Assembly: GCA_041601615.1 (NCBI GenBank)
Contig: JBFIHX010000008.1
Coordinates: 30,677 to 94,676 of the forward strand
DNA: 64,000 bases
Reading direction: 5' to 3'
Source of the DNA: Thermoplasmatota archaeon
GTDB taxonomy: Archaea; Thermoplasmatota; E2; JACPAO01; JAHFTW01
In this document: piece by piece, positions 11,609-59,259 of the stretch
How positions within the stretch are numbered: position 1 is the first letter of the stretch
How the letters are laid out: each line of letters starts with the position of its first letter
Translations under genes and position numbers: made by a program
Notes under the pieces: generated by a model
Told to the model about the DNA's origin: nothing
What the model saw: the letters and a program-made list of their open reading frames with translations, nothing else
Databases searched by the model: none

Positions 11609-12048
11609 CGCAAAGCGATTCGCACGAAATTTGGAAGCCACTCTGGGCAACCGGCGATCTAGTTGATTCGAGGCACAGGACTCTTCACCCTCATGCCGGC
11701 TCCGTCCGAGAGTCCTATCAAGGCCAGCAAGACAGGGACCTCGAGCTGAGCGCCAGGCCGCGGACGCCGCGCCTCCCCCCCCAACCCATCCCGAGTGCCT
11801 CTTCGACCTCGGCCAGACGCTGAACCATTTTGATTCATTTCTCATCTTTTTAATGGGGTTTATCCGAGCAAGCCAATCCCCCATTCAACCATATATCCAC
11901 TATATCTAGTGGAATAATGCCCGAATATTGGTAGGTATTCCCCCATCCGCCTTTACAGCGGAAAAATACTCGAAGAGTCGAGGATATTGGGCCAACAGAA
12001 GCATATATCAGCATAAGGTCCATGATGGTGCTGTCTGATACAGACTAG

Positions 12049-12267
12049 GTGAACAACATGGCCAAGACGCTACCCACCGTGCTTCTCGCACTATCACTGC
12101 TTGCCCTCACATGTGCCGCCCCAGTCGATGCATACGGCGCCTGCGTTGGGATCTGCATCGATGTCGCCGACACCAATGGCGACGGTGAGTACCGCGTTCA
12201 AACATGCACCGGAAACGTGAACGTCCAAGTGGGCCTGAGCAACGAAGCCCATTTCTGCGGGAACTGA
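12049..12267 (+). CDS. small secreted Cys-containing peptide (signal peptide plus ~44-aa mature part)
   Basis: Sec-type signal LLALSLLALTCAAPVDA. The mature part has 5 Cys and a NVNVQVGLSNEAHFCG motif shared with the two following genes. An AT-rich promoter region lies upstream. Confidence 0.5.
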   Translation: MNNMAKTLPTVLLALSLLALTCAAPVDAYGACVGICIDVADTNGDGEYRVQTCTGNVNVQVGLSNEAHFCGN

Positions 12268-12277
12268 GGCGGTTCAA

Positions 12278-12778
12278 ATGAGCCCACTTCTCACATGGGG
12301 CAGCACGACACTGCTTCTCGTCGCCGCATCGCTTGGATTGTCCCTCGTGGACAACGCATCGGACCCCGAAGCCCCTACCTCGATGACTGAAGCACTCCCG
12401 CCGCTGGACTCGACCGGCGGCGAGCACGAGTCGTTTGACCTATTGACAACGATTCATGGACACTTGGATTTCGACCTTCCAGAACATGCAACAGGTTGGG
12501 CGACTGCGACGCTGGCACCACTCGATTCTACTCCAGTGCGAAGCGACCGCAGCCTCTGCATCAAGCTCGTTCGACTCGAGCCCTCCCCTGTAACGCTTCG
12601 CCAATCCGGTCAATGCGGAATGAACGTCAACGTGCAATCGAACTTGGATTTTGGCGACCAAACCGTATTCGAGACAGATCTTGCCGAACTAGACCCCGGG
12701 CAATACCGCCTTGAATTCGAGGCGGACCCGCAAGCAGCGACCCTCCAATTTGTGGTTGCCTGGGAGATTGCACAATGA
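12278..12778 (+). CDS. secreted hypothetical protein carrying the CGMNVNVQSNLDFGD variant motif
   Basis: Signal peptide TTLLLVAASLGLSL. It is 11 nt downstream of the previous gene and overlaps the next gene by 4 nt (operon-like). Confidence 0.5.
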   Translation: MSPLLTWGSTTLLLVAASLGLSLVDNASDPEAPTSMTEALPPLDSTGGEHESFDLLTTIHGHLDFDLPEHATGWATATLAPLDSTPVRSDRSLCIKLVRLEPSPVTLRQSGQCGMNVNVQSNLDFGDQTVFETDLAELDPGQYRLEFEADPQAATLQFVVAWEIAQ

Positions 12779-13086
12779 ACAGTTGGGTACTCGCAACAGC
12801 GCTTGCCTTGGTAGCTCTCGCGGCCCCAGCGTCGGCCGATCAAGAAGCCAGCGACGGAGCTTGCGAGAATGAGGTGGTGGTCCAGTATGACCTGCGCCAC
12901 AACGAGAAACACTGCAGCAGTTGCACATTCATGATCATCATCCAGGTGGGTCTGGATAACGATACATCATGCAGAGACATCTGCATGTACAACGTCTTCA
13001 TACAGGTTGGGTTGGGCCATAATTTTGTTCATTGTGGATCTCTCCCCGTTGACCTCGTGTCACACGTACAAGCAACGATTCCCTAG
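12775..13086 (+). CDS. small secreted Cys-rich protein with two copies of the [IV]-x-[IV]-Q-V-G-L motif
   Basis: Signal peptide ALALVALAAPASA. Motifs MIIIQVGLDNDTSC and NVFIQVGLGHNFVHCG. 7 Cys. Confidence 0.5.
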   Translation: MNSWVLATALALVALAAPASADQEASDGACENEVVVQYDLRHNEKHCSSCTFMIIIQVGLDNDTSCRDICMYNVFIQVGLGHNFVHCGSLPVDLVSHVQATIP

Positions 13087-13159
13087 ATTCAAGGGCATCC
13101 GAACGCACCCAATTCTTGGAAGCTGGTGCTTTCCAAGGCGACCCTTGGTGATGAACCGT

Positions 13160-14725: not shown

Positions 14726-14823
14726 GGGGCGGCGACGGTGCAGGTGTTGTTCAAGGTTGGGAAGCGCTGGGCTCAAGTTCGTCCACCAAAAAGACCAACA
14801 ACCGCAAAGTTTCGGCGCCTCGC

Positions 14824-15858: not shown

Positions 15859-15888
15859 CCTCGCAGCCCCCGACGCGGTGCTGTTGTG

Positions 15889-20580: not shown

Positions 20581-20831
20581 CGAGGTTGCATGATGTTATA
20601 AGCAAAATCATAATTAGGGATTTAGTTATTATATACAATCAGTAAATATTACTAAATTTACATCGATAATAGAAAATTAAAGGGGCGCAAGTCGCTTCGC
20701 CCCCTGGGCTGTTCAGGCCAATTCGGCCCAATATCACCACCTTTGCTTATATTATGCTTACTCGATGCTGAACTAGACGTGATTACACGTCGGTGAACAT
20801 TATGCATGTAAAACAAATTTGAGCCACCTTT

Positions 20832-22100
20832 GTGGTGATAACCCTCCTTGGTGTAATCAACGCCCAAGGCCACGAGAGCAATGGTCCCGAAGGCCCTGCT
20901 ACCGACTACAAGACCTCCGAATTCGAGGTTGATACAAGCCAGATGCGCAAGAGCATCAACGAAGGCACGCCCGTGGTTTTGCCCTTTGGGGACATCGGCG
21001 CCATTTCGCTGGTCCTGGCGGAGTTCGACGTGTTCGCTCCGGGCATGAAGATTCGGCCAGTTCACGACGAAACCGGCTCCCCCGTTGGATACGAGCCGTT
21101 CCCATACTGGTCCTTTGAGGGCGTCGTCGCCAACGACCCGACCTCCCGAGCAGTCATTACGATGGACGACAGAGGCCTGTATGGCACCGTGAGGGCTTTT
21201 GACGTGCTGATGCACTACAAGCCAGTCGATGAAGACCATATCCTGGCGAGCGGTGAAATGGCCGTGGTCCGGGCGAAGTGGATCGACAACGGCAGCGCAG
21301 GCAGCATCCTCGTTGACGCGGAAAAGTACGCCATAGACACCGTCCGGGAAAACGATGCATCGCAGTCATCTCAAAGGAGCAGCGCCAAGACGGGTGGCAC
21401 AATCTACTACAAGTCTCCCGATACCAACCGAGTCTACGAGAACGACCTAAGCGTCAGTTGCAACCGCCAGCCTGCCACCGCCAAGTCCCTCGCGGACAAG
21501 CGATTCACGGACAAACACAGCAACTACGCCACTCGCATCGCCAACGCCTTCGCCATTCAACGAGCTATGTGGGACGCTTACACCTGCAACATCCTAGTCC
21601 TCAACAACATCGAGGCGCTACCGTATAACTATAGTAGTTCTGGCACTTGTTCCACGCACCTATTGCATTTCCGCCAATTCAACGAGGAAGAGTGGGGAAT
21701 CAATGCGTATCAACTATTCACTGGCATTGAGCTTAATGACTGTGATGGAATTGGATACAAGGAAAGTGCCGGGGTGCAAGCCAAGCACTACTATGGGTAC
21801 CGAACCGAAAATCCAAACAATTGGTGGGACGACCGTTTGAGCCTCATAGAGGCCGTTGACCACAACCGCTGGTCGGACTCTAACGACCCGGACGAACAGA
21901 GCGACCTGGGCCTTGTGAGTGCCCAAGAAATCGGCCACAACTGGGGCGAGCCAAGCCACCCACAGAGCGCGCAAAACTACCGCTACAACGTAATGGCGGA
22001 TGGAACGATCTATGACGACCGCGATTTCTGGATGACCAATGGAAATTCTTGGAACACTGCGGAGCTTATCGTCAAGGCAACGCAAGGAAAATTCATCTAA
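20832..22100 (+). CDS. hypothetical protein with degenerate metzincin/reprolysin-like motif
   Basis: GTG start immediately after a stop. QEIGHNWGEPSH resembles HExxHxxGxxH, but the first His is Gln and the third His is shifted by one. GC is ~50-58%, below the core. Confidence 0.5.
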   Translation: MVITLLGVINAQGHESNGPEGPATDYKTSEFEVDTSQMRKSINEGTPVVLPFGDIGAISLVLAEFDVFAPGMKIRPVHDETGSPVGYEPFPYWSFEGVVANDPTSRAVITMDDRGLYGTVRAFDVLMHYKPVDEDHILASGEMAVVRAKWIDNGSAGSILVDAEKYAIDTVRENDASQSSQRSSAKTGGTIYYKSPDTNRVYENDLSVSCNRQPATAKSLADKRFTDKHSNYATRIANAFAIQRAMWDAYTCNILVLNNIEALPYNYSSSGTCSTHLLHFRQFNEEEWGINAYQLFTGIELNDCDGIGYKESAGVQAKHYYGYRTENPNNWWDDRLSLIEAVDHNRWSDSNDPDEQSDLGLVSAQEIGHNWGEPSHPQSAQNYRYNVMADGTIYDDRDFWMTNGNSWNTAELIVKATQGKFI

Positions 22101-22575
22101 CTAGGATTTTCAGCGTCAACTCCCCCCCCTTTCCCGCTCCACTCCCGTCGGCATGCTTGAATCTAAAGACACCGCCTTGGAACTACCCCAATATATCGCA
22201 ATTTAGTGCCAGAAATCTTTTAATTTTGGGTTAATATGGACTTTCATTATCAAAAATATTGGCATGGTGAAAATTAAGTTTTGCGCATCCCCCTCCTTGG
22301 CTGCTCCAAACATGGGCTTCTGGGTCTACGAGGATTTTTTCCATGTAGCTGGATTTGCTCACGATTGCCCTGCGGTTCACTCCGATGGCTGACGCTGAAC
22401 CCAAATTCGAATGTGAACAGCCTAAGGACGCGGCTCGTTTTTGGCGGTCTATCTAAAACCGGGGGCACCAGGGGCCATTGCCTATAGCCTCTCCAGCACC
22501 AGGCGCCAACACCGGGTTTTGGAAGGCACCGCCATCCTCCACAATCCATAAGACGCCGCACCGCTGGAGCGCATC

Positions 22576-23082: not shown

Positions 23083-23089
23083 ACGCGCA

Positions 23090-35923: not shown

Positions 35924-37158
35924 GAGGAAAGTCTCCGACGAAGGAAGGCGTCGAGTCGTTCGAAGGCGGCACCCAATATGTCGGTATCGGGAAGCAGCAC
36001 GAGGCGGAAGTGGTCGCGGCCGTACACTTTGTCGAAGCCGCTGCCGTGGACCGTGAGCACTTTTTCTTCGTGCAGGAAGTCGAGAACGAACTCCTTGTCG
36101 TCGCTCCAGGGCCCGGTGCCGTCCACGAGGGCATCGATGCGGGGGAAGGCGTAGAAGGCGCCGTCGGGCTTGGCGCAGTGGATCCCGTCGATTTCATTGA
36201 GTTGCTTGACGGTGAAGTCGCGGCGGACGCGCAATGCGTCATTCATGGCGGCAATGTGATCTTGGGGTCCGTCGAGTGCCACGGCTGCGGCTTTCTGGGC
36301 GATGGTGGAAGCACAAATGCGGTTGCGGGCAACCTTCAGTACGCCTTCTTTGATTTGCGCAAGGCTACCCGTGGGGTCGTTCCACAAGCCGTGCCCAAGG
36401 CGCCAGCCGGGAACGAGGTACACTTTGGACATGCCGTTCAGCGTCACCATCGGAACATCGGGCGCAACGGTTGCGCTGGCAACTTGGGTGCCGTCGAAGG
36501 TCATGTCGTCGTAGATTTCGTCCGAAATGAGGAAGGCGTGGTCTTGGTGTTCGCCCACGAGGTCGGCAAATTGCTTGACGATCTTCTCCGAATACAACGC
36601 GCCCGTGGGGTTGTTGGGGTTGATGAGGCAGACCGCTTTGGTTTTGGGCGTGAGCTTGGCGCGCACGTCCTCCACGTCCGGCTGCCAGTCCTCACTTTCC
36701 AGCGTCGCGTAGTGAACGGGAGTGCCGCCGAAGTACTTCACCAAGGAATCATACGGCGGGTAGGCGGGGCCAGGAATCAAGACCTCGTCTCCGGGGACGA
36801 TGGCAGCGCCAAGCAGCATTTGCAGGACCTCGGTGACGCCCGTGCCCACGGTCACGTCGCCCACGGCGTAGTCCATGCCGTTGCGGCGCTTTTCGCGGCG
36901 TCGAATTGCATCCACGAACGCAGGGTCTCCCTCCGAAGCCGTGTAGCCGTTGTGGCCGTCGCGTGCCGCGTCCGCTAGGGCATCGAGCATGTGCTGCGGT
37001 GGCTGGAATCCATACTGGATCGGGTCGCCGATGTTGAGCTTCAGCACCTCGTGCCCTGCTGCCTCAAGCTTGCGGGCCGGAATCACAACGTCCCGGATGG
37101 CATACTCGACCTGGAGCGACCGCTCGGCGGCGGCCAGTGCGTGCCCCGTCGTCTGCAT
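35920..37158 (-). CDS. class-I/II PLP aminotransferase (alanine/aspartate aminotransferase-like)
   Basis: NPNNPTG, SKVY (PLP-Lys) and GWRLG motifs. Confidence 0.85.
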
Positions 37159-42551: not shown

Positions 42552-42872
42552 TTAGCAGAGGCCAACGCGAACGGGGCTCGTGTCGACGTACAGTTCGTTG
42601 CCGTAGCAGGTGTAGGAGTTGCCGTCGCAGTAGTAGCTGGTCCACGGGTAGTACACGTTCAGGGGGCCGTCGACGTAGGTGCGGTAGCTGTAGCAGCTGC
42701 TCGGGAAGTCGTAGTACGTGGTGCATGTCCGGACTAGGGAATCGCCGGTCAAGGGATCGTACAAGATTGGCGAGTTGCAGTACGTGGTGTGCGTGGCAGA
42801 TGCCGGCGAAATCATCAGCATGGTTCCGACGAGCAGCATTCCTAGCAGCAGGGGTTTGAGTATGGAGTTCAT
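42552..42872 (-). CDS. small secreted Tyr/Cys-rich protein, tandem paralog 1 (106 aa; ~80-aa mature part with 6 Cys and ~17 Tyr)
   Basis: Signal peptide MNSILKPLLLGMLLVGTMLMISPASA. 75-80% identical to the two paralogs downstream on this strand. Confidence 0.65.
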   Translation of the reverse strand: MNSILKPLLLGMLLVGTMLMISPASATHTTYCNSPILYDPLTGDSLVRTCTTYYDFPSSCYSYRTYVDGPLNVYYPWTSYYCDGNSYTCYGNELYVDTSPVRVGLC

Positions 42873-42940
42873 CCAATCCCCGCATTCAAAATATTCAATA
42901 TAAATATAATACGGGATGTTCGGAAAATCCTAAAATATGG
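42873..42940 (-). promoter_or_regulatory. AT-rich archaeal-type promoter (TATA-like TTTATATT ~30 nt upstream of ATG) for paralog 1
   Basis: A very AT-rich block directly upstream of the gene in otherwise 65% GC DNA. The reverse-complement reads ...GTATTATATTTATATTGAATATTTTGAATGCGGGGATTGGATG. Confidence 0.35.
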
Positions 42941-43299
42941 CCATGCGCCGAGCCGAACTATATTTTCCTAGATGGTTTAGTATCAGTGAAATGGACACCA
43001 CACCCACTTGGAATTGCCCCCGGACTGCGGCCCTAGAGGCGCCGACCACCACTAGGCTGCCCAGAAGAACGTAGGCCAGTGCGCCACCCCCGAGGCCAGT
43101 TTCATTGCAATCACTGCTTGCACTGGCTGTTCGGCCAAGCGTACAAGAATAAGGCGCCAACGAGAATAGGGACGGCATCCTCGACGGCCCGGACCAGTTC
43201 TTTGGCACCCGTAACTTGCCGAGACTTGGGCCCTGATTCAAGGACGCGAGAAATCCGACGCATCCGCGGGCGGTGCGCGGAGCCACGAAGAGCCCGCCA

Positions 43300-43457
43300 C
43301 CAAACCTTGGGGGCCCCGTGCATGTATGCAGGGTAATGCACGCGGTTCCGATCGGAGATCCTAGCGAGCAATGCCGGAATTGGAGGGGAAAAGGAGGAGA
43401 GTACCAAGAGACATCTTGGCGAAACTTGGCGTGTTTCAACTCATCCGAACCGACGGA
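43300..43457 (-). repeat. conserved non-coding 3' flank of copy 2 (same hairpin element)
   Basis: Near-identical to the copy-1 3' flank. Confidence 0.6.
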
Positions 43458-43775
43458 CTAGCAGACGCCAACGCGAGCAGGGTTCGTGTCGACGTACAGC
43501 GTGTTCTGGTAGCAGGTGTAGCTGTTGCCGTCGCAGTTGTAGTTCCTCCACGGGTAGTACACGTTCGTGGGACCATCGATGTAGCTGCGGGAGTAGTAGC
43601 AGCTGCTAGGGTAGTTGTAGTAGGTGGTGCACGTCCGAATCGGGTCACCAGTCAAGGGGTCGTACACGATGGGCGAGCCGCAGTACGTGTAGTGGCTGGC
43701 AGAAGCCGGCGAAATCATCAGCACGGTTCCGACGAGGAGCATTCCGAGTAGCAGGGGTTTGAGTATGGAGTTCAT
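43458..43775 (-). CDS. small secreted Tyr/Cys-rich protein, tandem paralog 2 (105 aa)
   Basis: Same signal peptide and Cys spacing as paralog 1. Confidence 0.65.
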   Translation of the reverse strand: MNSILKPLLLGMLLVGTVLMISPASASHYTYCGSPIVYDPLTGDPIRTCTTYYNYPSSCYYSRSYIDGPTNVYYPWRNYNCDGNSYTCYQNTLYVDTNPARVGVC

Positions 43776-44009
43776 CCAATCCCAGCATGCAAAAAATTCA
43801 ATATAAACATAAGACGGGATGTTCGAAAAATCCTAAAATATAGTCGTGGGGCAGCGCCATTCTACATGTTACTAGCGGTTTTAGAATCAATGAGAAGGTG
43901 GCCATCCCCAACCTCGAATTGGCTCCAGGCAGCGCCCCTCGAGGCGGCTCCGCCACCCCCCCTAGACTTCCCAGAAGAACGTCGACAGACCCGCCACCGA
44001 ACACAGAGG

Positions 44010-44154
44010 GGGCCCGCGCATGTTTTCAAGGTTAATTGAACGGTGTTGTGTCGAGATCCGAGCGAACAAAGCAGGAATTGGAAGGGAAAAGGAGGAAAAT
44101 CCAAGGGGCTGCTTCGTGCACCTTGGCCTGTTTCAACCCATCCGATTTGACAGA
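44010..44154 (-). repeat. diverged copy of the conserved 3' flank (copy 3)
   Basis: Shares the CCTTTTCCCTTCC pyrimidine tract and the GGATCTCGA segment. The hairpin has degenerated. Confidence 0.45.
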
Positions 44155-44475
44155 CTAGCAGAGGCCAACGCGAACGGGGCTCGTGTCGACGTACACTTCG
44201 TTCTGGTAGCAAGTGTAGCTGTTGCCGTCGCAGTAGTAGTTGGTCCACGGGTAGTACACGTTCACGGGGCCATCAACGTAGGTGCGGTAGTAGTAGCAGC
44301 TGCTAGGGTAGTTGTAGTAGGTGGTGCAGATTGTGACCATCGGATCGCCTGTCAAGGGATCGTACACAAGGGGCGGATTGCAGTACGTCGTGTGGTTGGC
44401 GGAAGCCGGCGTAATCATCAGCACGGTTCCAACGAGCAGCATTGCGAGTAGCAGGGGTTTGAGTATGGAGTTCAT
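44155..44475 (-). CDS. small secreted Tyr/Cys-rich protein, tandem paralog 3
   Basis: Starts at MNSILKPLLLAMLLVGTVLMITPASA. The ORF track allows 3 extra codons up to 44484. Confidence 0.65.
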   Translation of the reverse strand: MNSILKPLLLAMLLVGTVLMITPASANHTTYCNPPLVYDPLTGDPMVTICTTYYNYPSSCYYYRTYVDGPVNVYYPWTNYYCDGNSYTCYQNEVYVDTSPVRVGLC

Positions 44476-44987
44476 ACAATTCATTCATGCCAAATACCAA
44501 TATAAGTTTGGCTCGGGATTTTTGATAATTGGCCCAATATCAATGGTCGATGTAGCCCCCATATAGTTTACTATTTAGTTTTTTATCCAAGGATTGGGGA
44601 CGCACCCAATATACCTGCCTTCAGCGACGAATGGCCCAGTGGAGTCGCCGGCCGGTTGCGAGCCCAGCAGCAATTGAGCAAGTCCGCCATCTTTGAAAGC
44701 GGCATCACTGCGAGCACAGGAGGTGCTGTCTCTACAGAGGCGTCCGCTGAATGCCAGCGCCGTCGGTAGGACCCAGGTCGTTCATCCATTCATGATTGAA
44801 TCGCAGTTGTTTGCGGGTCCAAGGCCAAATGCAGGGGCCCGAAGCGCAGATTTCCCTTACAAGCGCGCCAACAAGCGCCGTGCGATCCTTGCCCCGCGCT
44901 CCTCTACAAAACCAGAACCACCCAATGGTTGACGGCCCGCCCCTCCCCCCCACAACCTTCACGACCCCACCTAGACCTCCACGCCCC

Positions 44988-46022
44988 ATGCGCACCCTGG
45001 CCACCCTTCTGTTGATCATCCCCCTTTTGGCAGGTTGCCTCTCCGACGATAGGGCAGATTCCATCGACAGCGCCGACGATCCCCTGCCCTTGACTGAATT
45101 GAATTGGGACGTGGTGGCCGGCGTGGATTGGTGGGAAGACCTCGCCACGAGCTACCCGAAACACGACACCTACACGCCCGTCAACGCAGCACTTCGCCAA
45201 CACCTCGTTTCCGAGATGCAGGCACTTGGCTTCGAGGTGGAAGTGCGCACCTACTACGCCTTGCCCCGCGATCCATCCCAAGTTCCGGCGCCTGAAGTAG
45301 AACCCATCGAAGTCCACGCCATCGTCGCGACCAAACTTGGCACCGAATTTCCCAACGAACGCATCGGCCTCGTCAGCCACTACGACACCCAAACCCTCAC
45401 CGTCCATGGCGCCTACGACGACGCCTCTGGAGTCGCTGCCGAATACAACATCTGCAAGAGCCTCGCCGACGTGCCCATGAAGCGAACACTCGCCTGCATC
45501 TTCTTTGACGCCGAAGAGCAAGGACTGGTCGCGTCGAAGCGCTACGTCGAAGACGTGGTGCTGGCGGGCGACGAGGGCTACACCTACGAATTCGTGCTCG
45601 GCTACGACATGACGGGCATCAACTGGCCCGGCTACCCCGACTGGAAAATGTACGTCATGGTCGGCGAGAACGTCGTCGAATGGCTGCGCCCCTTTGCCCA
45701 AGACGTGATGCACAACCAACTCGGCTACCCCACGAGCGGCGTCGAAGTGCTCGACGTACACGACCGCAACTCGGACGAACGTCGCTTCAAGGAAGCCGGT
45801 GTGCCGATCCTGCGCTTTGCCGGGGGTCGCAACGCCGCCGACTACCCCCAATACCACATGCCCCTCGACACCGTCGACTATGTCTACGACTTTGTGGGTG
45901 GCCGCGCCAACTTTGAAGCCGGATTTGCCACCGTCGTGGAAGCAAGCCACCACACCATCCTCGCCCTCGACGAAACCGGCGCCACCGCTTTGCAGCAGAA
46001 GGCCGGCATCCCAAGCCAGTAA
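44988..46022 (+). CDS. M28-family aminopeptidase lipoprotein
   Basis: Start re-placed at MRTLATLLLIIPLLAGC. M28 contexts HYDT, DDASGV, FFDAEEQGL. Confidence 0.8.
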   Translation: MRTLATLLLIIPLLAGCLSDDRADSIDSADDPLPLTELNWDVVAGVDWWEDLATSYPKHDTYTPVNAALRQHLVSEMQALGFEVEVRTYYALPRDPSQVPAPEVEPIEVHAIVATKLGTEFPNERIGLVSHYDTQTLTVHGAYDDASGVAAEYNICKSLADVPMKRTLACIFFDAEEQGLVASKRYVEDVVLAGDEGYTYEFVLGYDMTGINWPGYPDWKMYVMVGENVVEWLRPFAQDVMHNQLGYPTSGVEVLDVHDRNSDERRFKEAGVPILRFAGGRNAADYPQYHMPLDTVDYVYDFVGGRANFEAGFATVVEASHHTILALDETGATALQQKAGIPSQ

Positions 46023-50456: not shown

Positions 50457-50460
50457 TCAC

Positions 50461-51955: not shown

Positions 51956-52600
51956 AGGGAGGAGACATTCGGATTCCCAGGCTACGAGGCGGTAGAGGAT
52001 ATCGCCTTCACCACCACGGTCGAGGGAATCCAATGGGGCAACTCCACGTTGATCCTGGGCCACATGAAAAACAGCGACGGCACCCACACCGTCGTGCTCA
52101 CGGATCGCGCCGTCCGCGCCCTGCGGGCCTGGGTACGCGGCCTCCATGCCTCCCCCACGTGGCGTGGACCCGCAACGCCCCTCTTCACGGGGCCCGACGG
52201 CCGCGTGGTCACGAACAAGTGGCTCAACGAGGTCATGAAGCGCGTCGCGGCAATTGCCGGCGTCCAAAAGCGAGTCACGAGTCATGTCTACCGGCACACG
52301 GCAGGAACCCTCATCGGCCGCGAGAACCCCAAACTCGCCGTGTAACAACTCGGCGTCACGGACAAGGTCTTCCAAGCCCACTACAACCGGCCCCGACTCG
52401 AAGACCGCCTCCACCGACGCGACCTCCTGCCAGGAAGCAACGGCTCGCGCAAAACCCCGATGGAACGCCTCGGCTCGGCGTATTGGAAGTTCGAGCACGG
52501 CCTCATCGACCGCCAAGAACTCGACCACGTCCGAGAACTCACCCGGCTTGAAGTGACCACCAAAAACCAATCGAAACACGAAGAATCCGCATATGCATGA
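51956..52600 (+). pseudogene. tyrosine recombinase (integrase) C-terminal catalytic fragment, copy 1; 5'-truncated and carrying an in-frame TAA at 52343-52345
   Basis: Beta-hairpin segment after box I (ILGHMKNSDGTHTVVLTD), box II HVYRHTAGT, and catalytic Tyr region (AHYNRPRLEDRLHRRD) after the stop. ~60-70% identical to copy 2 at 60427..60993. Confidence 0.6.
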
Positions 52601-52612
52601 AACAAATCGTGT

Positions 52613-52692
52613 GGGGCCCAATTGGGCCCCGACACGGTTCGTATACGCGCTACGGTTCGTATACGCGCACTGCGGTTGATAGTCCCACCCGG
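52613..52692 (+). repeat. att-proximal repeat cluster: 18-bp perfect palindrome GGGGCCCAATTGGGCCCC, 2 x 17-bp tandem ACGGTTCGTATACGCGC, then 13-bp att core TAGTCCCACCCGG
   Basis: The att core is identical to 61051..61063 (the 3' end of tRNA-Gln). A GGTTCGTAT segment also follows integrase copy 2. Confidence 0.55.
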
Positions 52693-53063
52693 TTTCTTCA
52701 GAGGTTGGTGCCCAATTGGGCGCTTTTCCATCTTTTCCCTTCCCACATTTGTTCGCCCGAACAGCCGGCCTTGCTTGCACCCTTCGGTGCTCTGATTGCA
52801 TCCAGGCACTCCTGGTTCTGCCCTTCCTAGGGCCGACCCGAATCGGGACCCAATTCTGAACGGGGGCAGGAAGGCAGACTCATTACAAAATCAGAGGATT
52901 GCGTGCCGCAATCACTCAAAAACCCGCCCGCCTCGGCGTCTGCGTCCAAGCGGTTTCAGTTCACCTTCGGGCCAACAGTCGAACCGCCCTACAGAACGGT
53001 TCGTTCGTCCAGCCTGGGAAAGTGAATGACGAAGACCTGCTTCCCTACCCAGACCCAACAGGA

Positions 53064-53949: not shown

Positions 53950-54825
53950 TCAGGCCATGGTGGGCGTGGGCCCAGGGTTGAGGCGCGAAGGCAGCAAGGG
54001 AGTGAGTGCGAGCCAGGGCCAGATCAGGATCATTGAGTCCAATTGGAGCCATGCACGGGACATTCCCCAGTACGCCAGGAACAGCAACGCAAGCGTTACG
54101 GCGTGGGTGGGTGTGAGGTGTTTGTCCTGGTAGCGGCTAGCCAGGAGGTCGAGGTGTTGCTGTCTTGCTTCGGGAGTGTCGCGTTCGGCGGTCTCGGTGG
54201 CAGGGGGCCGAACGATGGCGTACAGGGGGGACGCGTATGCAACTACCAGCGCGAAAAGAAGGCCCGAGGCCAGTGCCTCCAGTGTGGGCGGAGGGGCACC
54301 GTCGAAGAAGAAGGATAGGGCGCCCCAATTGAATTGCCATCCGAAGAGGAACACAAGTTGAAGGGCACCGTAGGCGGATGCGACGATGCGCAGACCGCGC
54401 GGTGGGTTCCAGGTGGTAGCTACCAGGATGAGGGTGGCAATAGTCGCGGCGGCGTGGATGGTAGCAAGAAAGCGGACGCCCGCGTTGCTCCAGTCGGCCT
54501 CGGCAAGCAGCGCCCACATCGGTAGCGCCGAGAGAAAGAGCGTGTGTTCTCCCGCCTTGGGTGTGATGGTGGCGCGGAAAAAGAGCGCGAACGCCATGAC
54601 CGCGCCCATCGCGACGGAAAACGCCGCCGTCACGGGGTCCTCCAACTGTGCAGTGGCGAAGGCCCAGCCGAGGGGCGCGACGACGAGCACAATCAGGACA
54701 TGCTTTTTGGTCCAGTGCCGCCACGTCAGGTACAGGAGTTGCAGGAGACACCCCGCAGCAAAGGCGGCTGCCGCTACACCAGATCCAGGCATGGTCATTC
54801 CGACTCGGGCGGCTTGACGCCCCAA
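53950..54825 (-). CDS. polytopic membrane protein (hypothetical)
   Basis: Seven to eight hydrophobic helices. No recognised motif. Confidence 0.45.
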   Translation of the reverse strand: MGRQAARVGMTMPGSGVAAAAFAAGCLLQLLYLTWRHWTKKHVLIVLVVAPLGWAFATAQLEDPVTAAFSVAMGAVMAFALFFRATITPKAGEHTLFLSALPMWALLAEADWSNAGVRFLATIHAAATIATLILVATTWNPPRGLRIVASAYGALQLVFLFGWQFNWGALSFFFDGAPPPTLEALASGLLFALVVAYASPLYAIVRPPATETAERDTPEARQQHLDLLASRYQDKHLTPTHAVTLALLFLAYWGMSRAWLQLDSMILIWPWLALTPLLPSRLNPGPTPTMA

Positions 54826-55427
54826 TCCTGAAGGGTGAGCAACTTCCCACTTGTACCTGTGAATTTTATGAAATTCTCTACATCTGGGCTATACCATGCG
54901 TGCCAGATTTCACCACTTTGGAATGTACTAATTGTGTGGATTGTTTTCATTTTACCCCATGTGGTGTCTACGGTGTCCCACCCTTCGACAGCCACGTCAT
55001 AATGGTAATTTTCCTCGTATCCGTCTTGGTAGGTGGTGCAGTTATGGGTGTAGTTTGCCATCGGGAAAATTGGTCGTTGAGGGCAGTCATTCCAGAAGTA
55101 AAGCTTCGTCTGAAATGCCACCCACCCTAACGACTCTGTATCTACCCACTGGGTTCCCGCGCCTGTTGGGTGGATGTAGGGATCGGGCGGAGTCTCTACA
55201 AGAAGTCGGTATGTAGAATACCCTTGGTGTTCTTCAATACCCTCAACTTTGTAATGAAGCCACTCACCATCCGTGGTGTTGTATTTCCACCACTGTCCTA
55301 CCCCCCATGTGGGTACTGGCACATCCGACGGATCTGGCAAGGAGGCGTCCGCCTCGGAGGCCATACAGCCCGACAGGACGATGGCAACGAGCAGCAGGGA
55401 AGGAACGATAAGGATACGCATATTCAT
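54795..55427 (-). CDS. lipoprotein, Trp/Tyr-rich (hypothetical)
   Basis: Start re-placed at MRILIVPSLLLVAIVLSGC lipobox. AT-richer codon use. Confidence 0.45.
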   Translation of the reverse strand: MNMRILIVPSLLLVAIVLSGCMASEADASLPDPSDVPVPTWGVGQWWKYNTTDGEWLHYKVEGIEEHQGYSTYRLLVETPPDPYIHPTGAGTQWVDTESLGWVAFQTKLYFWNDCPQRPIFPMANYTHNCTTYQDGYEENYHYDVAVEGWDTVDTTWGKMKTIHTISTFQSGEIWHAWYSPDVENFIKFTGTSGKLLTLQDWGVKPPESE

Positions 55428-55440
55428 CTCCGAGATGATT

Positions 55441-58400
55441 TCAGTCATAAATAACTTCGTCGTGTCTCCAAACGTATTCCTGCGACGGAGTCGGAGAGAC
55501 TAAGTGGTCTACGAAGAACAGATCGACAGGTAGTGCCCAGTTGACAATGGGCGGTTGTTGGATGACAGCAGTGTATGGTACGCGGAGGAAGTTCGGATTG
55601 AAATCCCGCTCCTCCAATGCGTAGTGGATTTCGTCGCCTGTCTGGGCAAGGTTCCAGTAATACCCAACGATATCCCCGACGAAGTGTATTTTCATCATTG
55701 TTAAGAGCCATTTTTCGATATTTTTAGATTCTAGTGTTTTTATGATGGCCTTGACCCACCCATCGGCTTTTTGAGTAACTTCGGCGAAATTCGCGAAGTC
55801 CTCGTCCATGTCTAGAACATGGTGACGGAAGCCGATGCAATCATGGGGGTGGCTCGACTCACCCGAATGCCCGTAGTTTATCCACTCACAGGACTTGTAG
55901 TATGCCTCCCAATAGGCATTAAGAGCAAAACCATTGCCATCATTAGGTGCACGGCCGCTGGGAGGCGGGTTCTGCACTCTGTCGCGGTCTACAGACGAGT
56001 ACGGGTTGGATGGTACGAGGTTCATGAACCGGTCGCCGTCCGTGGCAGGGTTGCCTCCATTTCGAGTCTCGTATTGTTGGATGAACCATGTGTAATACTG
56101 GCCGTTGATTGGCGTAATCTGACCCCGGTTGGAACTGAATCGTTGGTCGTGGTCGTACTCGTAGTGATCCCACCCACTGACACGATTGCTGGAGGAATAG
56201 TATTCGTTCTTCAGCAGTTGCAGATTCGACCAGTAGTGGAAGCGGTTCCCAGTCTCATCCTCCTTCCACAACACCTTCAGGGTGTCCTTGTAGGCATGGT
56301 CGAAGAACGCATACGCATCGTAGCCGTGGCTGTCGTGATTGATGCCATTGGCGTCCGTGCGCCGAGTCGTGGTGAACCGGCTCATGACCTCGTAGTCCTC
56401 CTGGCCTGAGTAGAGCGCGACCTCTACGATCAACTCGCCGGCCCGGTCGGAACCGCCGTTCTCGCGGATCACGGAATTGGCGCTGCCGCTGTCCAGGTCT
56501 ACGCCGAAGCGCAAGCCGGGTGCAAACGACGTGCCGACGAAACGGAACGTATTGTCGCCCTCCACAAGGTATTCAGGCGGGAACGAAATGTAGCGGTACT
56601 GTTCCTCGGTACTGCTCCATGCGCAAGGATTGATCATGTAGATCATGACTCCGTTGACTTCCAAGCTGATGCTGTACTCACCTCCTTCGCTGCACCCGGT
56701 GCTGCGGCCCCAGATGCCCATCCAGGCGTCGTAGCCGCCGCCGTAACTCAGGTCTCGGATGTCGAGAGTCTTGATGAACTCGTCATTGCCACTGTTGACC
56801 TCCGCGCTCGTCTCGGCAGAAAAATCGTCGTTGTAGTATCCCTTGTAAGTATTGGCCTGGACCGTGTTGTAATTCCATTCCGTCGTGTAGACAGTGGTTG
56901 AATCGTTCGGAGATGGGGGCTGGCTGCTCGTGGTACCTGTCACGGACACGTCGTCCACGAACCAACCAAGGAAGCCGTTGGCGATGCTGTCTATTGTGTC
57001 GAAGCGGAACGCGAGGCGCACGTCCTGGCCGGTGAAGCTGCTCAGGCTGTACGTGCGCGTGACCCATTGCTCTTGGCTACCGTCGATGAGCGGGAAGTCC
57101 TGCAACACGGCACCCGTCGAACTGACGACCTGGACCCATTTCCGGTCGTAGCTCGTGCCAGATTCCGTCTGGTGCCAGCTCCTGAACGACAACGTGGCGC
57201 TTCCTGGAACGGTGAAGATGGGGCTGGTCAGGGTGCCGCTGTTGCGGGCGCCGTTGTCGTAATTGTTCGTGGATTCTTGTCCGTACCAACTGCTCTTGCA
57301 ACACGACTGGTACTTGTCAGAGGACAAGTGCCACATACCGGTCGTGCTCCACGAAGTGGAGGCGCTGTTGAATCCCTCCGATATGCCTTGGCCCGTGGAG
57401 CCGCCACCTCCGGTGTCGTCGGTTTCGGTGATTAGCACGTCGTCGATGGCCCAATGGTCGTAACTCGACCCACTGTGGGTCAGTTGGCGCCACCGGAACT
57501 GGGTGCTGGTCGTCTGGGCTCCCACTGGAATGGTTTCCGTGATGGACGTGAAGAGCGAGTAGCTGTCTTCTTTGTAGGTCTTGATAGTCGCCCAAGAGCC
57601 GCCGCCGTTGGTGCTGTATTCCAGGACTACGTCCTCGCTGGAGTCTGCATTCTCACACGGCGAGGACCCGGTACCGATGCGGAGGTAGAAGTTGACATGG
57701 CCTCCGCTGCTTACGTCCAGGCTCTTGGTGGCGGCGCTACGGGTGGAGCCGCCATCAAAGTAGAGCGCGTAGGGGCTGCTCTGGCTGCCGCAACTGCTGC
57801 CTTCGCTAGCGCCTGAGTAGGTCCACTTGTTCGTGTCAAAGCTGCCGTCATTGAAGTTGTCCGAGAGCCGGGTCACACCGCTACCGCCGTTGGTGACGGT
57901 GTTGGTGATGACCACGTCGTCCACGGCCCAGTGGTCTCGGTCTGTGTATGCTGCGAAGTTGAGTTCCCGCCATCGGAACATGGTGTTGCTCGTCTTAGCG
58001 ACCGATGGAATCGCGGCGGACTGGGACCCCCATGAGCCGTGGCTTCCAGCTTGAAGCGTCTTGATGGCAGTCCAGGAGGAACCGCCGTTGGTCGAGTATT
58101 CCAGGACCAGATCGTCGTCGTGTTCGGGTTCGGGCTTGTCACAGGTCCCTCCCCCCGTCCCGGTTCCGTGGCGGGCATAGAAGGATATGGAATCACCGTT
58201 CTGGACGTTGAGGCCTGGGGTGCGGGCGTAGCGGCCGCTGGTGCCGTAGAAGTAAAGGGCACGGCTTCCGCTGACGCTGCCGCAATTCGTGGATTCACTC
58301 ACGCCGCTTCGGCTCGGCCACTTGGATGAACTGATGGTGCCGTCGTCGAAATCGTCCTGGAACACGATCTGGGTGCCGACTTCCTGCAAGTCCGGGGATG

Positions 58401-59118
58401 CCGTGGGTAGTTCCGGTGTGAGGTTGGTGGTCTGGTGGTACGTGCGGTTCCAGTCCTCGAAGGGAATGTAGTCGGCCATCATGCCCGGCATGGGGTTGCT
58501 GCCGGTGCGGGGCACGCGGATGTCGGGGAGAACGTCGCGGGGCGCGGGGAGGCTGGCAGGCATTGGGGTGGATGTGGATTGGGTCGAGTCGTTGCAGTCC
58601 GGCGGGCTCGGCGGTTCGGGTGGATTAGTGTCACCCCCGCCTTCCACCTGAACGTTTACCTTGCCCCCGCTAGAGTCCGAGGACGAGGCTCGGGAGGAGG
58701 TGGTTTGGCAGGGGTTGATAGGCGGGTCTTCCACAAGATCCAGCAGGTTGGTGTGGTAGAAGACCCGAGTCGGCACCGGGCTTTGCTGGATGGCGATCTC
58801 GTCATCGGGGAATTCCGCAAGGTCGTAGGCGGGAAGGGCGCCGGAGTAGAGTAGGCCCTTGTATTCGTCCAACTGGTTTGCCAGGGCAGTCATGACGCTG
58901 TTGGCGCGGAGGCTGCGGGCGGTGGGGGCCATGCCAGTGGGGTCAAGGCCGCCGACGGTCAGGTCCATGGCGTCCAGAAGTTCGCGCTCCAGTTCCCCCA
59001 CGTCGTCGCGGCCCAGGGGCAGTTGGTCTTGGCTGGCGGTGAGGGGGATGCTCACAAGTAGCGTCAGGCTCAACACGGCGGCAGTCGTAATCTTTGTCAG
59101 GGTGGCAGGATTGAACAT
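55441..59118 (-). CDS. large secreted protein (~1220 aa) with three MAM-like/jelly-roll repeats and an uncharacterised ~420-aa C-terminal domain
   Basis: Start re-placed at MFNPATLTKITTAAVLSLTLLVSIPLTAS. Three repeats carry the C-G-S...ALYF-x-G...LEYSTNGG-x-SW...FRWRQ...DHWA[IV]DDV pattern. GC is lower than the core. Confidence 0.7.
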   Translation of the reverse strand: MFNPATLTKITTAAVLSLTLLVSIPLTASQDQLPLGRDDVGELERELLDAMDLTVGGLDPTGMAPTARSLRANSVMTALANQLDEYKGLLYSGALPAYDLAEFPDDEIAIQQSPVPTRVFYHTNLLDLVEDPPINPCQTTSSRASSSDSSGGKVNVQVEGGGDTNPPEPPSPPDCNDSTQSTSTPMPASLPAPRDVLPDIRVPRTGSNPMPGMMADYIPFEDWNRTYHQTTNLTPELPTASPDLQEVGTQIVFQDDFDDGTISSSKWPSRSGVSESTNCGSVSGSRALYFYGTSGRYARTPGLNVQNGDSISFYARHGTGTGGGTCDKPEPEHDDDLVLEYSTNGGSSWTAIKTLQAGSHGSWGSQSAAIPSVAKTSNTMFRWRELNFAAYTDRDHWAVDDVVITNTVTNGGSGVTRLSDNFNDGSFDTNKWTYSGASEGSSCGSQSSPYALYFDGGSTRSAATKSLDVSSGGHVNFYLRIGTGSSPCENADSSEDVVLEYSTNGGGSWATIKTYKEDSYSLFTSITETIPVGAQTTSTQFRWRQLTHSGSSYDHWAIDDVLITETDDTGGGGSTGQGISEGFNSASTSWSTTGMWHLSSDKYQSCCKSSWYGQESTNNYDNGARNSGTLTSPIFTVPGSATLSFRSWHQTESGTSYDRKWVQVVSSTGAVLQDFPLIDGSQEQWVTRTYSLSSFTGQDVRLAFRFDTIDSIANGFLGWFVDDVSVTGTTSSQPPSPNDSTTVYTTEWNYNTVQANTYKGYYNDDFSAETSAEVNSGNDEFIKTLDIRDLSYGGGYDAWMGIWGRSTGCSEGGEYSISLEVNGVMIYMINPCAWSSTEEQYRYISFPPEYLVEGDNTFRFVGTSFAPGLRFGVDLDSGSANSVIRENGGSDRAGELIVEVALYSGQEDYEVMSRFTTTRRTDANGINHDSHGYDAYAFFDHAYKDTLKVLWKEDETGNRFHYWSNLQLLKNEYYSSSNRVSGWDHYEYDHDQRFSSNRGQITPINGQYYTWFIQQYETRNGGNPATDGDRFMNLVPSNPYSSVDRDRVQNPPPSGRAPNDGNGFALNAYWEAYYKSCEWINYGHSGESSHPHDCIGFRHHVLDMDEDFANFAEVTQKADGWVKAIIKTLESKNIEKWLLTMMKIHFVGDIVGYYWNLAQTGDEIHYALEERDFNPNFLRVPYTAVIQQPPIVNWALPVDLFFVDHLVSPTPSQEYVWRHDEVIYD

Positions 59119-59235
59119 TCGATTTCCTCCAGTGGACTCATCGACTTCGGGCATATCGGCCGATGTGAGTTGCCCCAAGAAATGGACTTTGGTACTTGAA
59201 TTCTTGCTGTAAGGGCAATTTGCATTTCCCATTTG

Positions 59236-59259
59236 ACCCAATATCAATAATCATATTGG
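59236..59259. promoter_or_regulatory. inverted repeat CCCAATAT-N8-ATATTGGG upstream of the large secreted-protein gene
   Basis: A member of the recurring CCCAATAT intergenic motif family (see findings). Confidence 0.3.

What the first reader, a model, noticed from the sequence alone, without database searches (positions are those of the whole stretch)
11984..59259. Recurring CCCAATAT(CA) motif in AT-rich intergenic regions flanking accessory secreted-protein genes
Occurrences: ATATTGGGCC at 11984-11993, upstream of P1; GGCCCAATATCA at 20735-20746, upstream of the metzincin-like gene; CCCCAATATAT at 22186-22196; GGCCCAATATCA at 44531-44542 plus the inverted pair ATTGGG-N6-CCCAATAT at 44593-44613, upstream of Tyr/Cys paralog 3; the inverted repeat CCCAATAT-N8-ATATTGGG at 59236-59259, upstream of the giant secreted protein; and the palindromes GGGGCCCAATTGGGCCCC at 52613-52630 and GCCCAATTGGGC at ~52707-52718 near the att site. 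A GC-rich head joined to an AT tail, repeatedly in inverted pairs, looks like a dimeric transcription-factor operator shared by an accessory or mobile regulon. Alternatively it could be a site used by the integrative elements.
Basis: seen in the sequence. Interest (0 to 1): 0.55.

Follow-up and report, generated by a model that had tools for sequence, protein, structure and literature searches.

The report
Promoter-region DNA word in an archaeon
A short DNA word (GATATTGGG, the reverse complement of CCCAATATC) recurs far more often than chance next to the promoters of a few orphan secreted-protein genes in an uncultured Thermoplasmatota archaeon; it is probably a docking site for an unknown gene regulator, which is a real but fairly ordinary kind of finding.

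Summary
The motif is real and non-random. CCCAATAT occurs 8 times against 0.73 expected. It is the top-ranked 8-mer within the low-GC islands, with 7 copies against 0.30 expected (p = 3e-8). Four copies share the 14-mer TGATATTGGGCCAA with at most 1 mismatch (0.01 expected). Copies cluster: 5 neighbour pairs lie within 80 bp of each other (P = 0.0009).

- The window is archaeal (Thermoplasmatota), with leaderless genes and BRE/TATA promoters. Sigma-70 and operator logic does not apply.
- The two CCCAATTGGG palindromes near 52.6 kb are a separate feature, beside an integrase remnant and a tRNA-Gln att fragment.
- One quoted coordinate is 10 bases off.

The copies lie about 20-40 bp upstream of TATA-like boxes of four low-GC orphan gene units whose products carry signal peptides. 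These are the P1-P3 operon, the metzincin-like gene, Tyr/Cys paralog 3 and the 1,225-aa protein. In the P1 and metzincin-like promoters the 7-bp core starts at exactly -74, the TATAT box at -54 and the Shine-Dalgarno sequence (SD) at -10, but the core is inverted between the two.

My best reading is a binding site for an unknown sequence-specific transcription factor just upstream of BRE/TATA (confidence about 0.4). The main rivals are a specialised core-promoter (TATA) variant (about 0.3) and a recombinase site (about 0.1). No orthologous promoters exist in public data, so conservation could not be tested. This is a new member of a known kind, of modest interest.

The parts
11982..11995 (+). 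Best-class copy 1, GGATATTGGGCCAA. The 7-mer core ATATTGG starts 74 nt before the P1 ATG (12058) and points towards the P1-P3 operon.
11921..11932 (.). Weak palindromic copy CCGAATATTGGT (two overlapping one-mismatch half-sites), 59 bp upstream of copy 1.
12004..12008 (+). TATAT of a TATA-like box (GCATATATCA), 54 nt before the P1 ATG. GGTGA (the SD) is at -10.
12058..13086 (+). P1 (72 aa), P2 (166 aa) and P3 (103 aa): an operon of small orphan proteins with signal peptides and no Pfam match.
20723..20736 (-). Best-class copy 2, TGATATTGGGCCGA on the minus strand (GGCCCAATATCA on the plus strand). The core CCAATAT starts 74 nt before ATG 20802 of the metzincin-like gene, inverted relative to copy 1.
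20748..20752 (+). TATAT of a TATA-like box (GCTTATATTA), 54 nt before ATG 20802. GGTGA is at -10.
20802..22100 (+). Metzincin-like orphan gene (about 50% GC). The reading frame from ATG 20802 has an in-frame TGA at 20820-20822; the uninterrupted ORF starts at GTG 20832.
22186..22195 (-). Second-class copy, TATATTGGGG on the minus strand, 86 nt after the stop of the metzincin-like gene. It is in direct orientation with copy 2.
44529..44542 (-). Best-class copy 3, the exact TGATATTGGGCCAA. It is part of the 22-bp near-palindrome TTGATAATTGGCCCAATATCAA (44522-44543). The core starts 65 nt before the Tyr/Cys paralog 3 ATG (44475).
44593..44613 (-). ATTGGG-N6-CCCAATAT pair. The exact copy TATATTGGG (44605-44613, minus strand) starts 137-138 nt before the paralog 3 ATG.
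44497..44505 (-). CTTATATTGG, the proximal TATA-type box of paralog 3. ATATTGG is at -28, the canonical TATA position of this lineage. Paralogs 1 and 2 have TTTATATTGAA at the same place.
44155..44475 (-). Tyr/Cys-rich paralog 3 (106 aa), the third of three tandem orphan paralogs.
59233..59260 (.). Best-class copy 4 (TGATATTGGGTCAA, minus strand, 59233-59246) plus its inverted partner CATATTGGG (59252-59260). Together they read CCCAATAT-CAATAATC-ATATTGGG. The cores lie 126 and 141 nt before ATG 59118.
55441..59118 (-). 1,225-aa secreted protein (two Reelin-subrepeat-B stretches and a MAM-like stretch). It is preceded by a GGAGGA SD and followed by two overlapping ORFs (54795-55448, 53950-54825). 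It lies on an 8.4-kb element inserted at tRNA-Gln.

Best explanation
The repeated word is a genuine cis-element whose invariant unit is GATATTGGG (reverse complement CCCAATATC). In its four best copies it extends to tTGATATTGGG(C/T)C(A/G)A. The host is a Thermoplasmatota archaeon whose genes are mostly leaderless and use a TATA box about 26 nt before the start codon.

The element lies in clusters of two or three copies, about 20-40 bp upstream of TATA-like boxes. Four gene units carry it, all low-GC, orphan and encoding proteins with signal peptides: the P1-P3 operon, the metzincin-like gene, Tyr/Cys paralog 3, and the 1,225-aa protein with its downstream ORFs.

I read it as the binding site of an unknown sequence-specific transcription factor. 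The factor would recognise one strong half-site and, weakly, a CCAA(T) partner across a central G/C. It would act on the neighbouring TATA/BRE by helping or hindering TBP/TFB recruitment. A position just upstream of BRE/TATA is where archaeal activators usually sit, so activation is the more likely sign.

- Shown: the enrichment, the clustering, the promoter-proximal position, the identical -74/-54/-10 geometry in two promoters, and the archaeal promoter context.
- Inferred: that a protein binds the element, that the TATA-like boxes named are the functional ones, and the sign of regulation.
For: **Non-random and specific.**
- 8 copies against 0.73 expected.
- Top 8-mer in the low-GC islands, p = 3e-8.
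- The 14-mer with at most 1 mismatch occurs 4 times against 0.01 expected.

**Homotypic clusters.** There are 5 neighbour pairs within 80 bp (P = 0.0009).

**Invariant G/C positions on both sides of a 5-bp AT core.** This pattern argues for base-specific reading rather than TBP binding alone.

**The word differs from the lineage's housekeeping promoter consensus.** That consensus has an AT peak at -28..-25, a C-rich stretch at -23..-21 and G at -36, derived from 69-76 genes.

**Fixed position with flipped orientation.** In the P1 and metzincin-like promoters the core starts at -74, TATAT at -54 and GGTGA at -10 in both, but the core is inverted between them.

**A related tandem GATTTTGGG x2.** It lies 31-40 nt upstream of a canonical, conserved TATA of a conserved gene. 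So the word can occupy an upstream position rather than the TATA position.

**Alternatives tested and not supported.**
- No extended repeat or MITE surrounds the copies.
- No RNA family or stable leader fold was found.

**Archaeal identity.** Pantoate kinase, LigA, a PAC2 chaperone and 'Thermoplasmatota archaeon' names on ligase homologues all point the same way.
Against: - No candidate regulator was found in the window. The structure model of the neighbouring 206-aa ORF is unusable (pLDDT 41).
- No conservation test was possible. The linked genes have no orthologues. In 78 kb from six relatives there are only 2 CCAATAT, one checked as lying inside a gene and the other apparently so.
- Distances to start codons vary (-28, -65, -74, -126, -137, -141).
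- The arrangements of paired copies differ, so no single dimer geometry fits.
- 13-14 of 14 identical bases in four copies is tighter than most regulon operators.
- One copy (44497-44503) sits exactly at the TATA position, and the word resembles the paralogs' TATA boxes. This favours the core-promoter rival.
Confidence: 0.4

Rival explanations
1. The word is a specialised core promoter. In this reading, (T)TGATATTG is a TATA-box variant and the following GGGCC(AA) is a flanking contact, perhaps for TFB. Each copy would be a promoter firing in the ATATTGGG direction. These promoters would give leadered mRNAs for P1, paralog 3 and the giant gene, and short or antisense RNAs elsewhere.
For: - The paralogs' proximal boxes TTTATATTG and CTTATATTGG end 22-23 nt before their ATGs, as housekeeping TATA boxes do. 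ATATTGG is at -28 in paralog 3.
- Lineage TATA boxes often read xTTTWAAG|CC, and one is TTGATAAG|CC, which is similar in style.
- The ATATTGG direction points to a gene in 6 of 9 intergenic copies.
- An AT-rich stretch lies 15-22 nt downstream of copies 1, 3 and 4, like the -10 AT bump of this lineage.
- The minus-strand copy at 20723-20736 is followed by a hairpin plus T-run.
Against: - The lineage consensus after the AT box is C-rich, not G-rich.
- The AT core is only 5 bp, flanked by invariant G on both sides.
- Most copies would need 5' leaders of 36-110 nt in a lineage that is mainly leaderless.
- The copy before the metzincin-like gene is inverted at the same -74 position.
- No intergenic copy occurs in 78 kb of relatives.
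- Three copies would drive no recognisable gene.
Confidence: 0.3
2. The copies are core-type sites, or leftover half-sites, of a tyrosine recombinase. They would be dif-like or cassette-exchange sites marking the borders of exchangeable accessory-gene cassettes.
For: - Four copies share a near-identical 14-mer.
- 59235-59264 reads TGACCCAATAT-CAATAATC-ATATTGGGGAA: 11-bp arms matching at 9 of 11 positions, with an 8-bp spacer.
- 44522-44543 reads TTGATAAT-TGGCCC-AATATCAA. In style this recalls the Pyrococcus abyssi dif ATTGGATATAA-TCGGCC-TTATATCTAAA (PMC2958812).
- The metzincin-like gene is flanked by direct CCCAATAT copies at 20727 and 22187.
- In the closest relative, the P1 operon position holds a different secreted-protein gene.
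Against: - The polarity of the arms is opposite in the 59-kb and 44-kb pairs.
- Most copies are single arms.
- dif should be a single copy.
- The integrase remnants present use a tRNA-Gln fragment as att, without the motif.
- No recombinase gene lies next to any copy.
- A metagenome scan for the 20-mer family found only unrelated, mostly low-GC contigs.
- The fixed -74 position relative to the start codons fits a promoter role better.
Confidence: 0.1
3. The pattern has no function of its own. It would be a by-product of local AT-rich composition, or of shared ancestry of promoter fragments brought in with foreign DNA.
For: - All copies sit in low-GC, apparently foreign regions.
- The one-mismatch set of the 8-mer is not enriched.
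- There is no comparative support.
Against: - A local-composition null still gives p = 3e-8, and the word ranks first among all 8-mers.
- The 14-mer occurs 4 times against 0.01 expected.
- Flanks share no similarity beyond about 17 nt, so simple duplication is unlikely.
- The copies are clustered, and two promoters share a fixed position.
Confidence: 0.12
4. The word is an RNA-level element. The inverted pairs would form hairpins in 5' leaders or act as terminators.
For: CCCAATAT-N8-ATATTGGG and ATTGGG-N6-CCCAAT could each form a small hairpin.
Against: - The motif-bearing leaders fold no better than shuffled sequences (z = -1.55, +0.78, +0.92 and -0.40).
- There are no Rfam matches.
- Most copies are unpaired single words.
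- No T-run follows the hairpins.
Confidence: 0.04

Closest known systems
Archaeal upstream activating sites bound just upstream of BRE/TATA (from my own knowledge: Ptr2 of Methanocaldococcus jannaschii; TFB-RF1 of Pyrococcus furiosus)
   Same: Short sequence-specific sites lie in one to three copies immediately upstream of the BRE/TATA of a small set of promoters. Their position is compatible with TBP/TFB recruitment.
   Different: The sequence is unrelated to any published site that I know. No Lrp-type or other regulator was identified. Binding, the sign of regulation and the TSS positions are untested. The lineage (Thermoplasmatota MAG) has no experimental system.
Thermococcales glycolytic motif TATCAC-N5-GTGATA, bound by TrmB-like regulators (from my own knowledge)
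   Same: It is a regulon-type motif containing TATCA/TGATA, found near the BRE/TATA of several promoters. Copy 3 has TGATA...TATCA ends.
   Different: The arrangement is opposite (TGATA-N10-TATCA rather than TATCAC-N5-GTGATA). The conserved GGGCC centre has no counterpart. Only one of the four copies is symmetric.
Archaeal BRE/TATA core promoter
   Same: The word has an AT core with conserved flanks. One copy sits at the canonical -28 position, and the word resembles the TATA boxes of the three paralogs.
   Different: The lineage consensus derived here is TTTWAAG followed by C-rich sequence, with G at -36. The motif is G-rich after a 5-bp AT core and mostly lies 58-141 nt from start codons.
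Xer/dif-type recombination sites (P. abyssi dif, PMC2958812) and dif-module-like cassette borders
   Same: AT-rich inverted arms surround a short central region containing GGCC, and the sites lie next to accessory genes.
   Different: There are several copies, mostly single arms, with inconsistent polarity. No Xer gene is in view. The sequence matches only in style.

Membership tests
   Pantoate kinase next to CoaBC, archaeal LigA, a PAC2 chaperone and a TIGR01177 methyltransferase are present. Ligase homologues are named Thermoplasmatota archaeon. An AT peak at -26 before start codons indicates leaderless TATA promoters. The sigma-70 scan found nothing consistent.
Transcription-factor binding site (archaeal UAS/operator) | A specific word recurs in several promoter regions beyond chance. 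| tested here: met
Transcription-factor binding site (archaeal UAS/operator) | The site has a defined position relative to the core promoter. | tested here: inconclusive
   The -74/-54/-10 geometry is identical in two promoters. Distances differ at paralog 3 and the giant gene. TSSs are unknown.
Transcription-factor binding site (archaeal UAS/operator) | The site has dyad or repeat symmetry matching an oligomeric factor. | tested here: inconclusive
   There is a strong half-site plus a weak CCAA(T) partner. Only copy 3 is a good palindrome, and the paired copies have different spacings.
Transcription-factor binding site (archaeal UAS/operator) | A cognate regulator exists and binds the site. 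| not testable with these tools
   No DNA-binding domain was found in window ORFs. The AF2 model of ORF 59251-59871 is unusable.
Transcription-factor binding site (archaeal UAS/operator) | The site is conserved in orthologous promoters. | not testable with these tools
   The linked genes are orphans. The relatives fetched lack them.
Archaeal TATA/BRE core promoter | An AT-rich box about 26 nt upstream of the TSS, or of the start codon in leaderless genes. | tested here: inconclusive
   This is met for 44497-44503 (-28). It is not met for the other copies unless long leaders are assumed.
Archaeal TATA/BRE core promoter | The word matches the lineage's own promoter consensus. | tested here: not met
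   The consensus is TTTWAAG plus C-rich sequence at -23..-21 and G at -36. The motif has GGG after the AT core.
Tyrosine-recombinase core site (dif/att) | Two inverted arms of about 11 bp flank a 6-8 bp spacer. | tested here: inconclusive
   This is met at 59235-59264 (arms 9/11, spacer 8) and loosely at 44522-44543. The other copies are single arms.
Tyrosine-recombinase core site (dif/att) | The site is associated with a recombinase gene or with element borders. | tested here: not met
   The integrase remnants at 51956-52597 and 60427-60993 pair with tRNA-Gln and its 3' fragment, not with the motif.
MITE / repeated mobile element | Similarity extends beyond the core, with terminal inverted repeats. 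| tested here: not met
   There is no shared flank beyond about 17 nt.
Structured RNA element | A stable or conserved fold, or an Rfam match. | tested here: not met

The most novel reading that the evidence does not exclude
A single dedicated factor could control a private regulon of horizontally acquired, low-GC, orphan secreted-protein genes in an uncultivated Thermoplasmatota lineage, through the 14-bp word TGATATTGGGCCAA. The factor might be a sequence-specific regulator or an alternative TFB/TBP. The regulon would include a 1,225-aa adhesin-like protein carried on an integrated element. This would be an archaeal counterpart of dedicated control of foreign genes.
Probability: 0.2. Interest if true: 0.5.

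Novelty: new member of a known kind. Interest (0 to 1): 0.3.

Why it matters
Almost nothing is known about gene regulation in uncultured Thermoplasmatota. A sharply defined 14-bp word tied to a handful of orphan secreted-protein genes would give a concrete handle in three ways. It could be used as bait for DAP-seq or pull-downs. It could serve as a marker to find the rest of the regulon in the full genome. It could test whether accessory, foreign-looking genes in archaea are wired to a dedicated regulator.

The by-product may be as useful as the motif itself: a promoter grammar for this lineage (AT peak at -26, C-rich -23..-21, G at -36, mostly leaderless).

Even so, an unassigned cis-regulatory motif is a common kind of object. 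The present evidence comes from only four to seven copies in one 64-kb window.

Tried and rejected
**Promoter-type readings that did not fit.**
- Sigma-70, sigma-54, sigma-28, sigma-32 and Fur-box readings were made by eye, and a promoter scan was run. No consistent -35/-10 emerged, and the question became moot once the host proved archaeal.

**Phylogenetic footprinting.**
- The Tyr/Cys paralog family has no homologue outside this genome among 5.8 billion clusters.
- The giant protein has only itself and a 37% relative whose upstream region lacks the motif.
- The genome-contig scan returned only distant Bacteroidia and Verrucomicrobia hits.
- Six related ligase loci (78 kb) are syntenic but lack the accessory genes and have no intergenic copy.

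**Attempts to extend the same genome.**
- Only about 3-kb contigs from GCA_041635295.1 and Logan were reachable.
- The last look-up failed.

**Pattern scans of large collections.**
- The 14-mer in viral contigs gave more than 120 single, apparently random hits.
- The 20-mer family in metagenomes gave 66 unrelated contigs, many of them long hairpins in low-GC bacteria.

**Other checks that led nowhere.**
- Literature search for the word returned only primers.
- MITE/repeat search found nothing.
- Rfam and RNA folding found nothing.
- Regulator search by Pfam, NCBIfam, PDB and AF2 found nothing, including for ORF 59251-59871.

**Grouping with the 52.6-kb palindromes.**
- Merging the 52.6-kb CCCAATTGGG palindromes with the motif was rejected.
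Full report

CCCAATAT occurs 8 times in the window: 11984-, 20727+, 22187+, 35972+, 44533+, 44605+, 59237+ and 59253-. Dinucleotide-preserving shuffles give 0.73.

GGCCCAATATCA 'at 20735' is really at 20725-20736. The 59-kb inverted repeat is at 59237-59260. The second 52-kb palindrome is at 52710-52721. The copy at 35972, inside an aminotransferase gene, was missed.

All other copies lie in AT-rich islands, so I repeated the test inside the 6.7 kb of low-GC islands with a per-island Markov null.
- CCCAATAT is the top-ranked 8-mer of 5,658, with 7 copies against 0.30 expected (p = 3e-8).
- CCAATAT is the top 7-mer, with 11 against 1.26.

The one-mismatch set is not enriched (28 against 24), so the signal lies in the exact word. 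Eight of 43 NATATT words are followed by GGG.

Four copies share much more. TGATATTGGGCCAA with at most one mismatch occurs at 11982-11995(+), 20723-20736(-), 44529-44542(-) and 59233-59246(-), 4 times against 0.01 expected. Their alignment gives tTGATATTGGG(C/T)C(A/G)A, and nothing is shared beyond about 17 nt. The hits are clustered: 5 neighbour pairs lie within 80 bp (P = 0.0009).

**2.

The palindromes GGGGCCCAATTGGGCCCC (52613-52630) and GCCCAATTGGGC (52710-52721) share only CCCAAT with the motif. That 6-mer is barely enriched (48 against 35).

I aligned 52.3-52.9 kb with 60.7-61.3 kb. The alignment shows two paralogous integrase remnants, at 51956-52597 and 60427-60993 (62-67% identical). 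One lies beside tRNA-Gln (61050-61123). The other lies beside an approximately 18-nt fragment of the 3' end of that tRNA (about 52680-52697), which is an att site. The first palindrome is an insertion directly after the integrase stop codon. This is a separate feature.

**3. The host is an archaeon**

The window carries the following:
- a pantoate kinase next to CoaBC;
- an archaeal-type LigA;
- a PAC2/proteasome-assembly chaperone;
- a TIGR01177 methyltransferase;
- RNase Z.

Ligase homologues are named 'Thermoplasmatota archaeon'. Proteins of the window are singletons at 90% identity in a 15-billion-protein collection. The nearest relative has a 91% identical ligase (GCA_041623015.1).

I took 69-76 upstream regions from six related loci, plus a few window genes, and derived the lineage's promoter grammar:
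- an AT peak at -28..-25 (82% AT at -26);
- a C-rich stretch at -23..-21;
- G at -36;
- a small AT bump at -10.

This describes leaderless mRNAs with a TATA box of the type cTTTWAAG|CC. Sigma-70 and operator reasoning therefore does not apply, and scans for it gave nothing consistent.

**4. Where the copies sit**

All non-coding copies lie beside low-GC genes that have no Pfam match or are orphans, and whose products begin with signal-peptide-like sequences. These are:
- the P1-P2-P3 operon (12058-13086);
- the metzincin-like gene (ATG 20802);
- Tyr/Cys paralog 3 (ATG 44475);
- the 1,225-aa Reelin-B/MAM protein (ATG 59118).

The M28 peptidase downstream of 44.5 kb most likely starts at 44988 (lipobox). 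The 44.5-kb copies therefore belong to paralog 3.

Measured from the start codons, the P1 and metzincin-like promoters are superimposable. The 7-bp core starts at -74, TATAT at -54 and the GGTGA Shine-Dalgarno sequence (SD) at -10 in both. Yet the core is ATATTGG in one and CCAATAT in the other.

Paralog 3 has cores at -28, -65 and -137. The giant gene has cores at -126 and -141.

The -28 copy of paralog 3 (CTTATATTGG) occupies the canonical TATA position. It aligns with TTTATATTGAA in paralogs 1 and 2.

A related tandem, GATTTTGGG x2 (5598-5615), lies 31-40 nt upstream of a canonical TATA (TTTTTG). That TATA is conserved in the relative, before a conserved small membrane-protein gene.

**5. 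Interpretation**

A sequence-specific protein site just upstream of BRE/TATA fits best, for these reasons:
- G/C positions on both sides of a 5-bp AT core are invariant.
- The word differs from the lineage's own TATA consensus.
- It occurs in homotypic clusters.
- It keeps its position but flips orientation between two otherwise identical promoters.
- It can lie upstream of an independently recognisable TATA box.

From my own knowledge, archaeal activators such as Ptr2 and TFB-RF1 work from this position by recruiting TBP/TFB. The sign of regulation here is inferred, not shown.

The main rival is that (T)TGATATTG is itself a TATA variant. In favour:
- It resembles the paralogs' TATA boxes and one relative's TTGATAAG|CC.
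- One copy sits at -28.
- The ATATTGG direction points to a gene in 6 of 9 intergenic copies.

Against:
- The G-rich flank is contrary to the lineage's C-rich one.
- Long leaders would be required.
- The copy before the metzincin-like gene is inverted.

A recombination-site reading is kept alive by several points:
- The 14-mers are near-identical.
- The 59-kb site has 11-bp arms (9/11 matching) with an 8-bp spacer.
- There is a stylistic likeness of TTGATAAT-TGGCCC-AATATCAA to the P. abyssi dif ATTGGATATAA-TCGGCC-TTATATCTAAA (PMC2958812).
- Direct copies flank the metzincin-like gene.
- In the closest relative, the P1 operon position holds a different gene.

Several points count against it:
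- Arm polarity is inconsistent.
- Most copies are single arms.
- The integrases in view use a tRNA att.
- A metagenome scan gave only unrelated hits.

RNA-level and MITE explanations failed their tests.

**6. Limits**

The genes linked to the motif have no orthologues anywhere in the searched collections, so conservation could not be tested. The 78 kb from relatives contain no intergenic copy, but they also lack comparable islands. The rest of the source genome could not be reached. No regulator was identified.

**7. Verdict**

This is a real, statistically solid, promoter-associated DNA word in an uncultured archaeon. It is most likely a transcription-factor site (about 0.4), possibly a specialised core-promoter element (about 0.3), and less likely a recombinase site (about 0.1). 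It is a new member of a known kind and of modest interest.

Noticed in passing
window 1-64000; relatives L126-L128, L132-L134: The window is from a Thermoplasmatota archaeon, not a bacterium. Across 69-76 genes of the lineage, the upstream regions show an AT peak at -28..-25, a C-rich stretch at -23..-21, G at -36 and a small AT bump at -10. This is a leaderless TATA promoter grammar (cTTTWAAG|CC).
   Followed up: yes
window 20802-20834: The metzincin-like gene has a signal-peptide-like start, ATG CAT GTA AAA CAA ATT, followed by an in-frame TGA (20820-20822) and then ...FVVITLLGVINAQG. The promoter geometry, identical to that of P1, points to ATG 20802 as the original start. The gene may be a pseudogene, may re-initiate at GTG 20832, or the TGA may be a sequencing error.
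   Followed up: partly
window 42552-44484: Three tandem paralogs of a 105-109-aa Tyr/Cys-rich secreted protein lie here, about 80% identical at the DNA level including their flanks. The family has no homologue outside this genome among 5.8 billion protein clusters.
   Followed up: partly
window 12058-13086: P1 and P3 are small secreted proteins with a repeated (V/I)QVGLxN...C unit. The unit resembles the QxGxxN core of curlin repeats, but Pfam gives no hit. In the closest relative (L126 11114-11698) the same chromosomal position holds a different Cys-rich secreted gene, so the position looks like a cassette-turnover spot.
   Followed up: partly
window 51956-52721 and 60427-61123: Two paralogous tyrosine-integrase remnants lie here, one next to tRNA-Gln and the other next to an approximately 18-nt 3' fragment of that tRNA (about 52680-52697). 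They look like tandem integrated elements. Between them and the att fragment are two GCCCAATTGGGC palindromes (52613-52630, 52710-52721) and a direct repeat ACGGTTCGTATACGCGC x2 (about 52635-52670), possibly arm-type sites.
   Followed up: partly
window 11959-11982 and 20672-20708: In both the P1 and metzincin-like promoter regions, a hairpin followed by a T-run is oriented on the strand opposite to the gene, directly beside the motif. These could terminate short divergent transcripts or insulate the promoters.
   Followed up: no
window 5598-5615 (minus strand): A tandem GATTTTGGG-GATTTTGGG(CC), one mismatch from the motif, lies 31-40 nt upstream of the canonical TATA (TTTTTG, 5574-5569) of a conserved small basic membrane-protein gene (ATG 5547). 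The relative L126 has GAAATTGG at the aligned position.
   Followed up: partly
window 13103-13113 and 44600-44610: The 11-mer ACGCACCCAAT occurs just after the P1-P3 operon and within the paralog 3 upstream region. The copy at 13103 lies in inverted orientation to the motif copy at 11982, so the P1 operon is bracketed by GA(T)ATTGGG-like words.
   Followed up: no
window 117-2519 (minus strand): A LodA-type L-lysine epsilon-oxidase homologue (LodA_N and LodA_C domains) is encoded in this archaeal genome. The family is mostly known from bacteria.
   Followed up: no
window 59251-60164 (minus strand): Two ORFs (98 aa and 206 aa) overlap by ATGA. The stop codon of the 206-aa ORF overlaps the 59-kb palindrome, directly upstream of the giant gene. 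There is no family match, and the AF2 model has pLDDT 41. The idea that one of them is the local regulator is untested.
   Followed up: partly
metagenome loci L135-L200: The degenerate palindrome TGATAWTKGSCCMAWTATCA occurs in 66 unrelated metagenome contigs. Perfect palindromes are over-represented (38 of 66). Several are centres of much longer hairpins in low-GC bacterial contigs. These are unrelated to this archaeon.
   Followed up: partly
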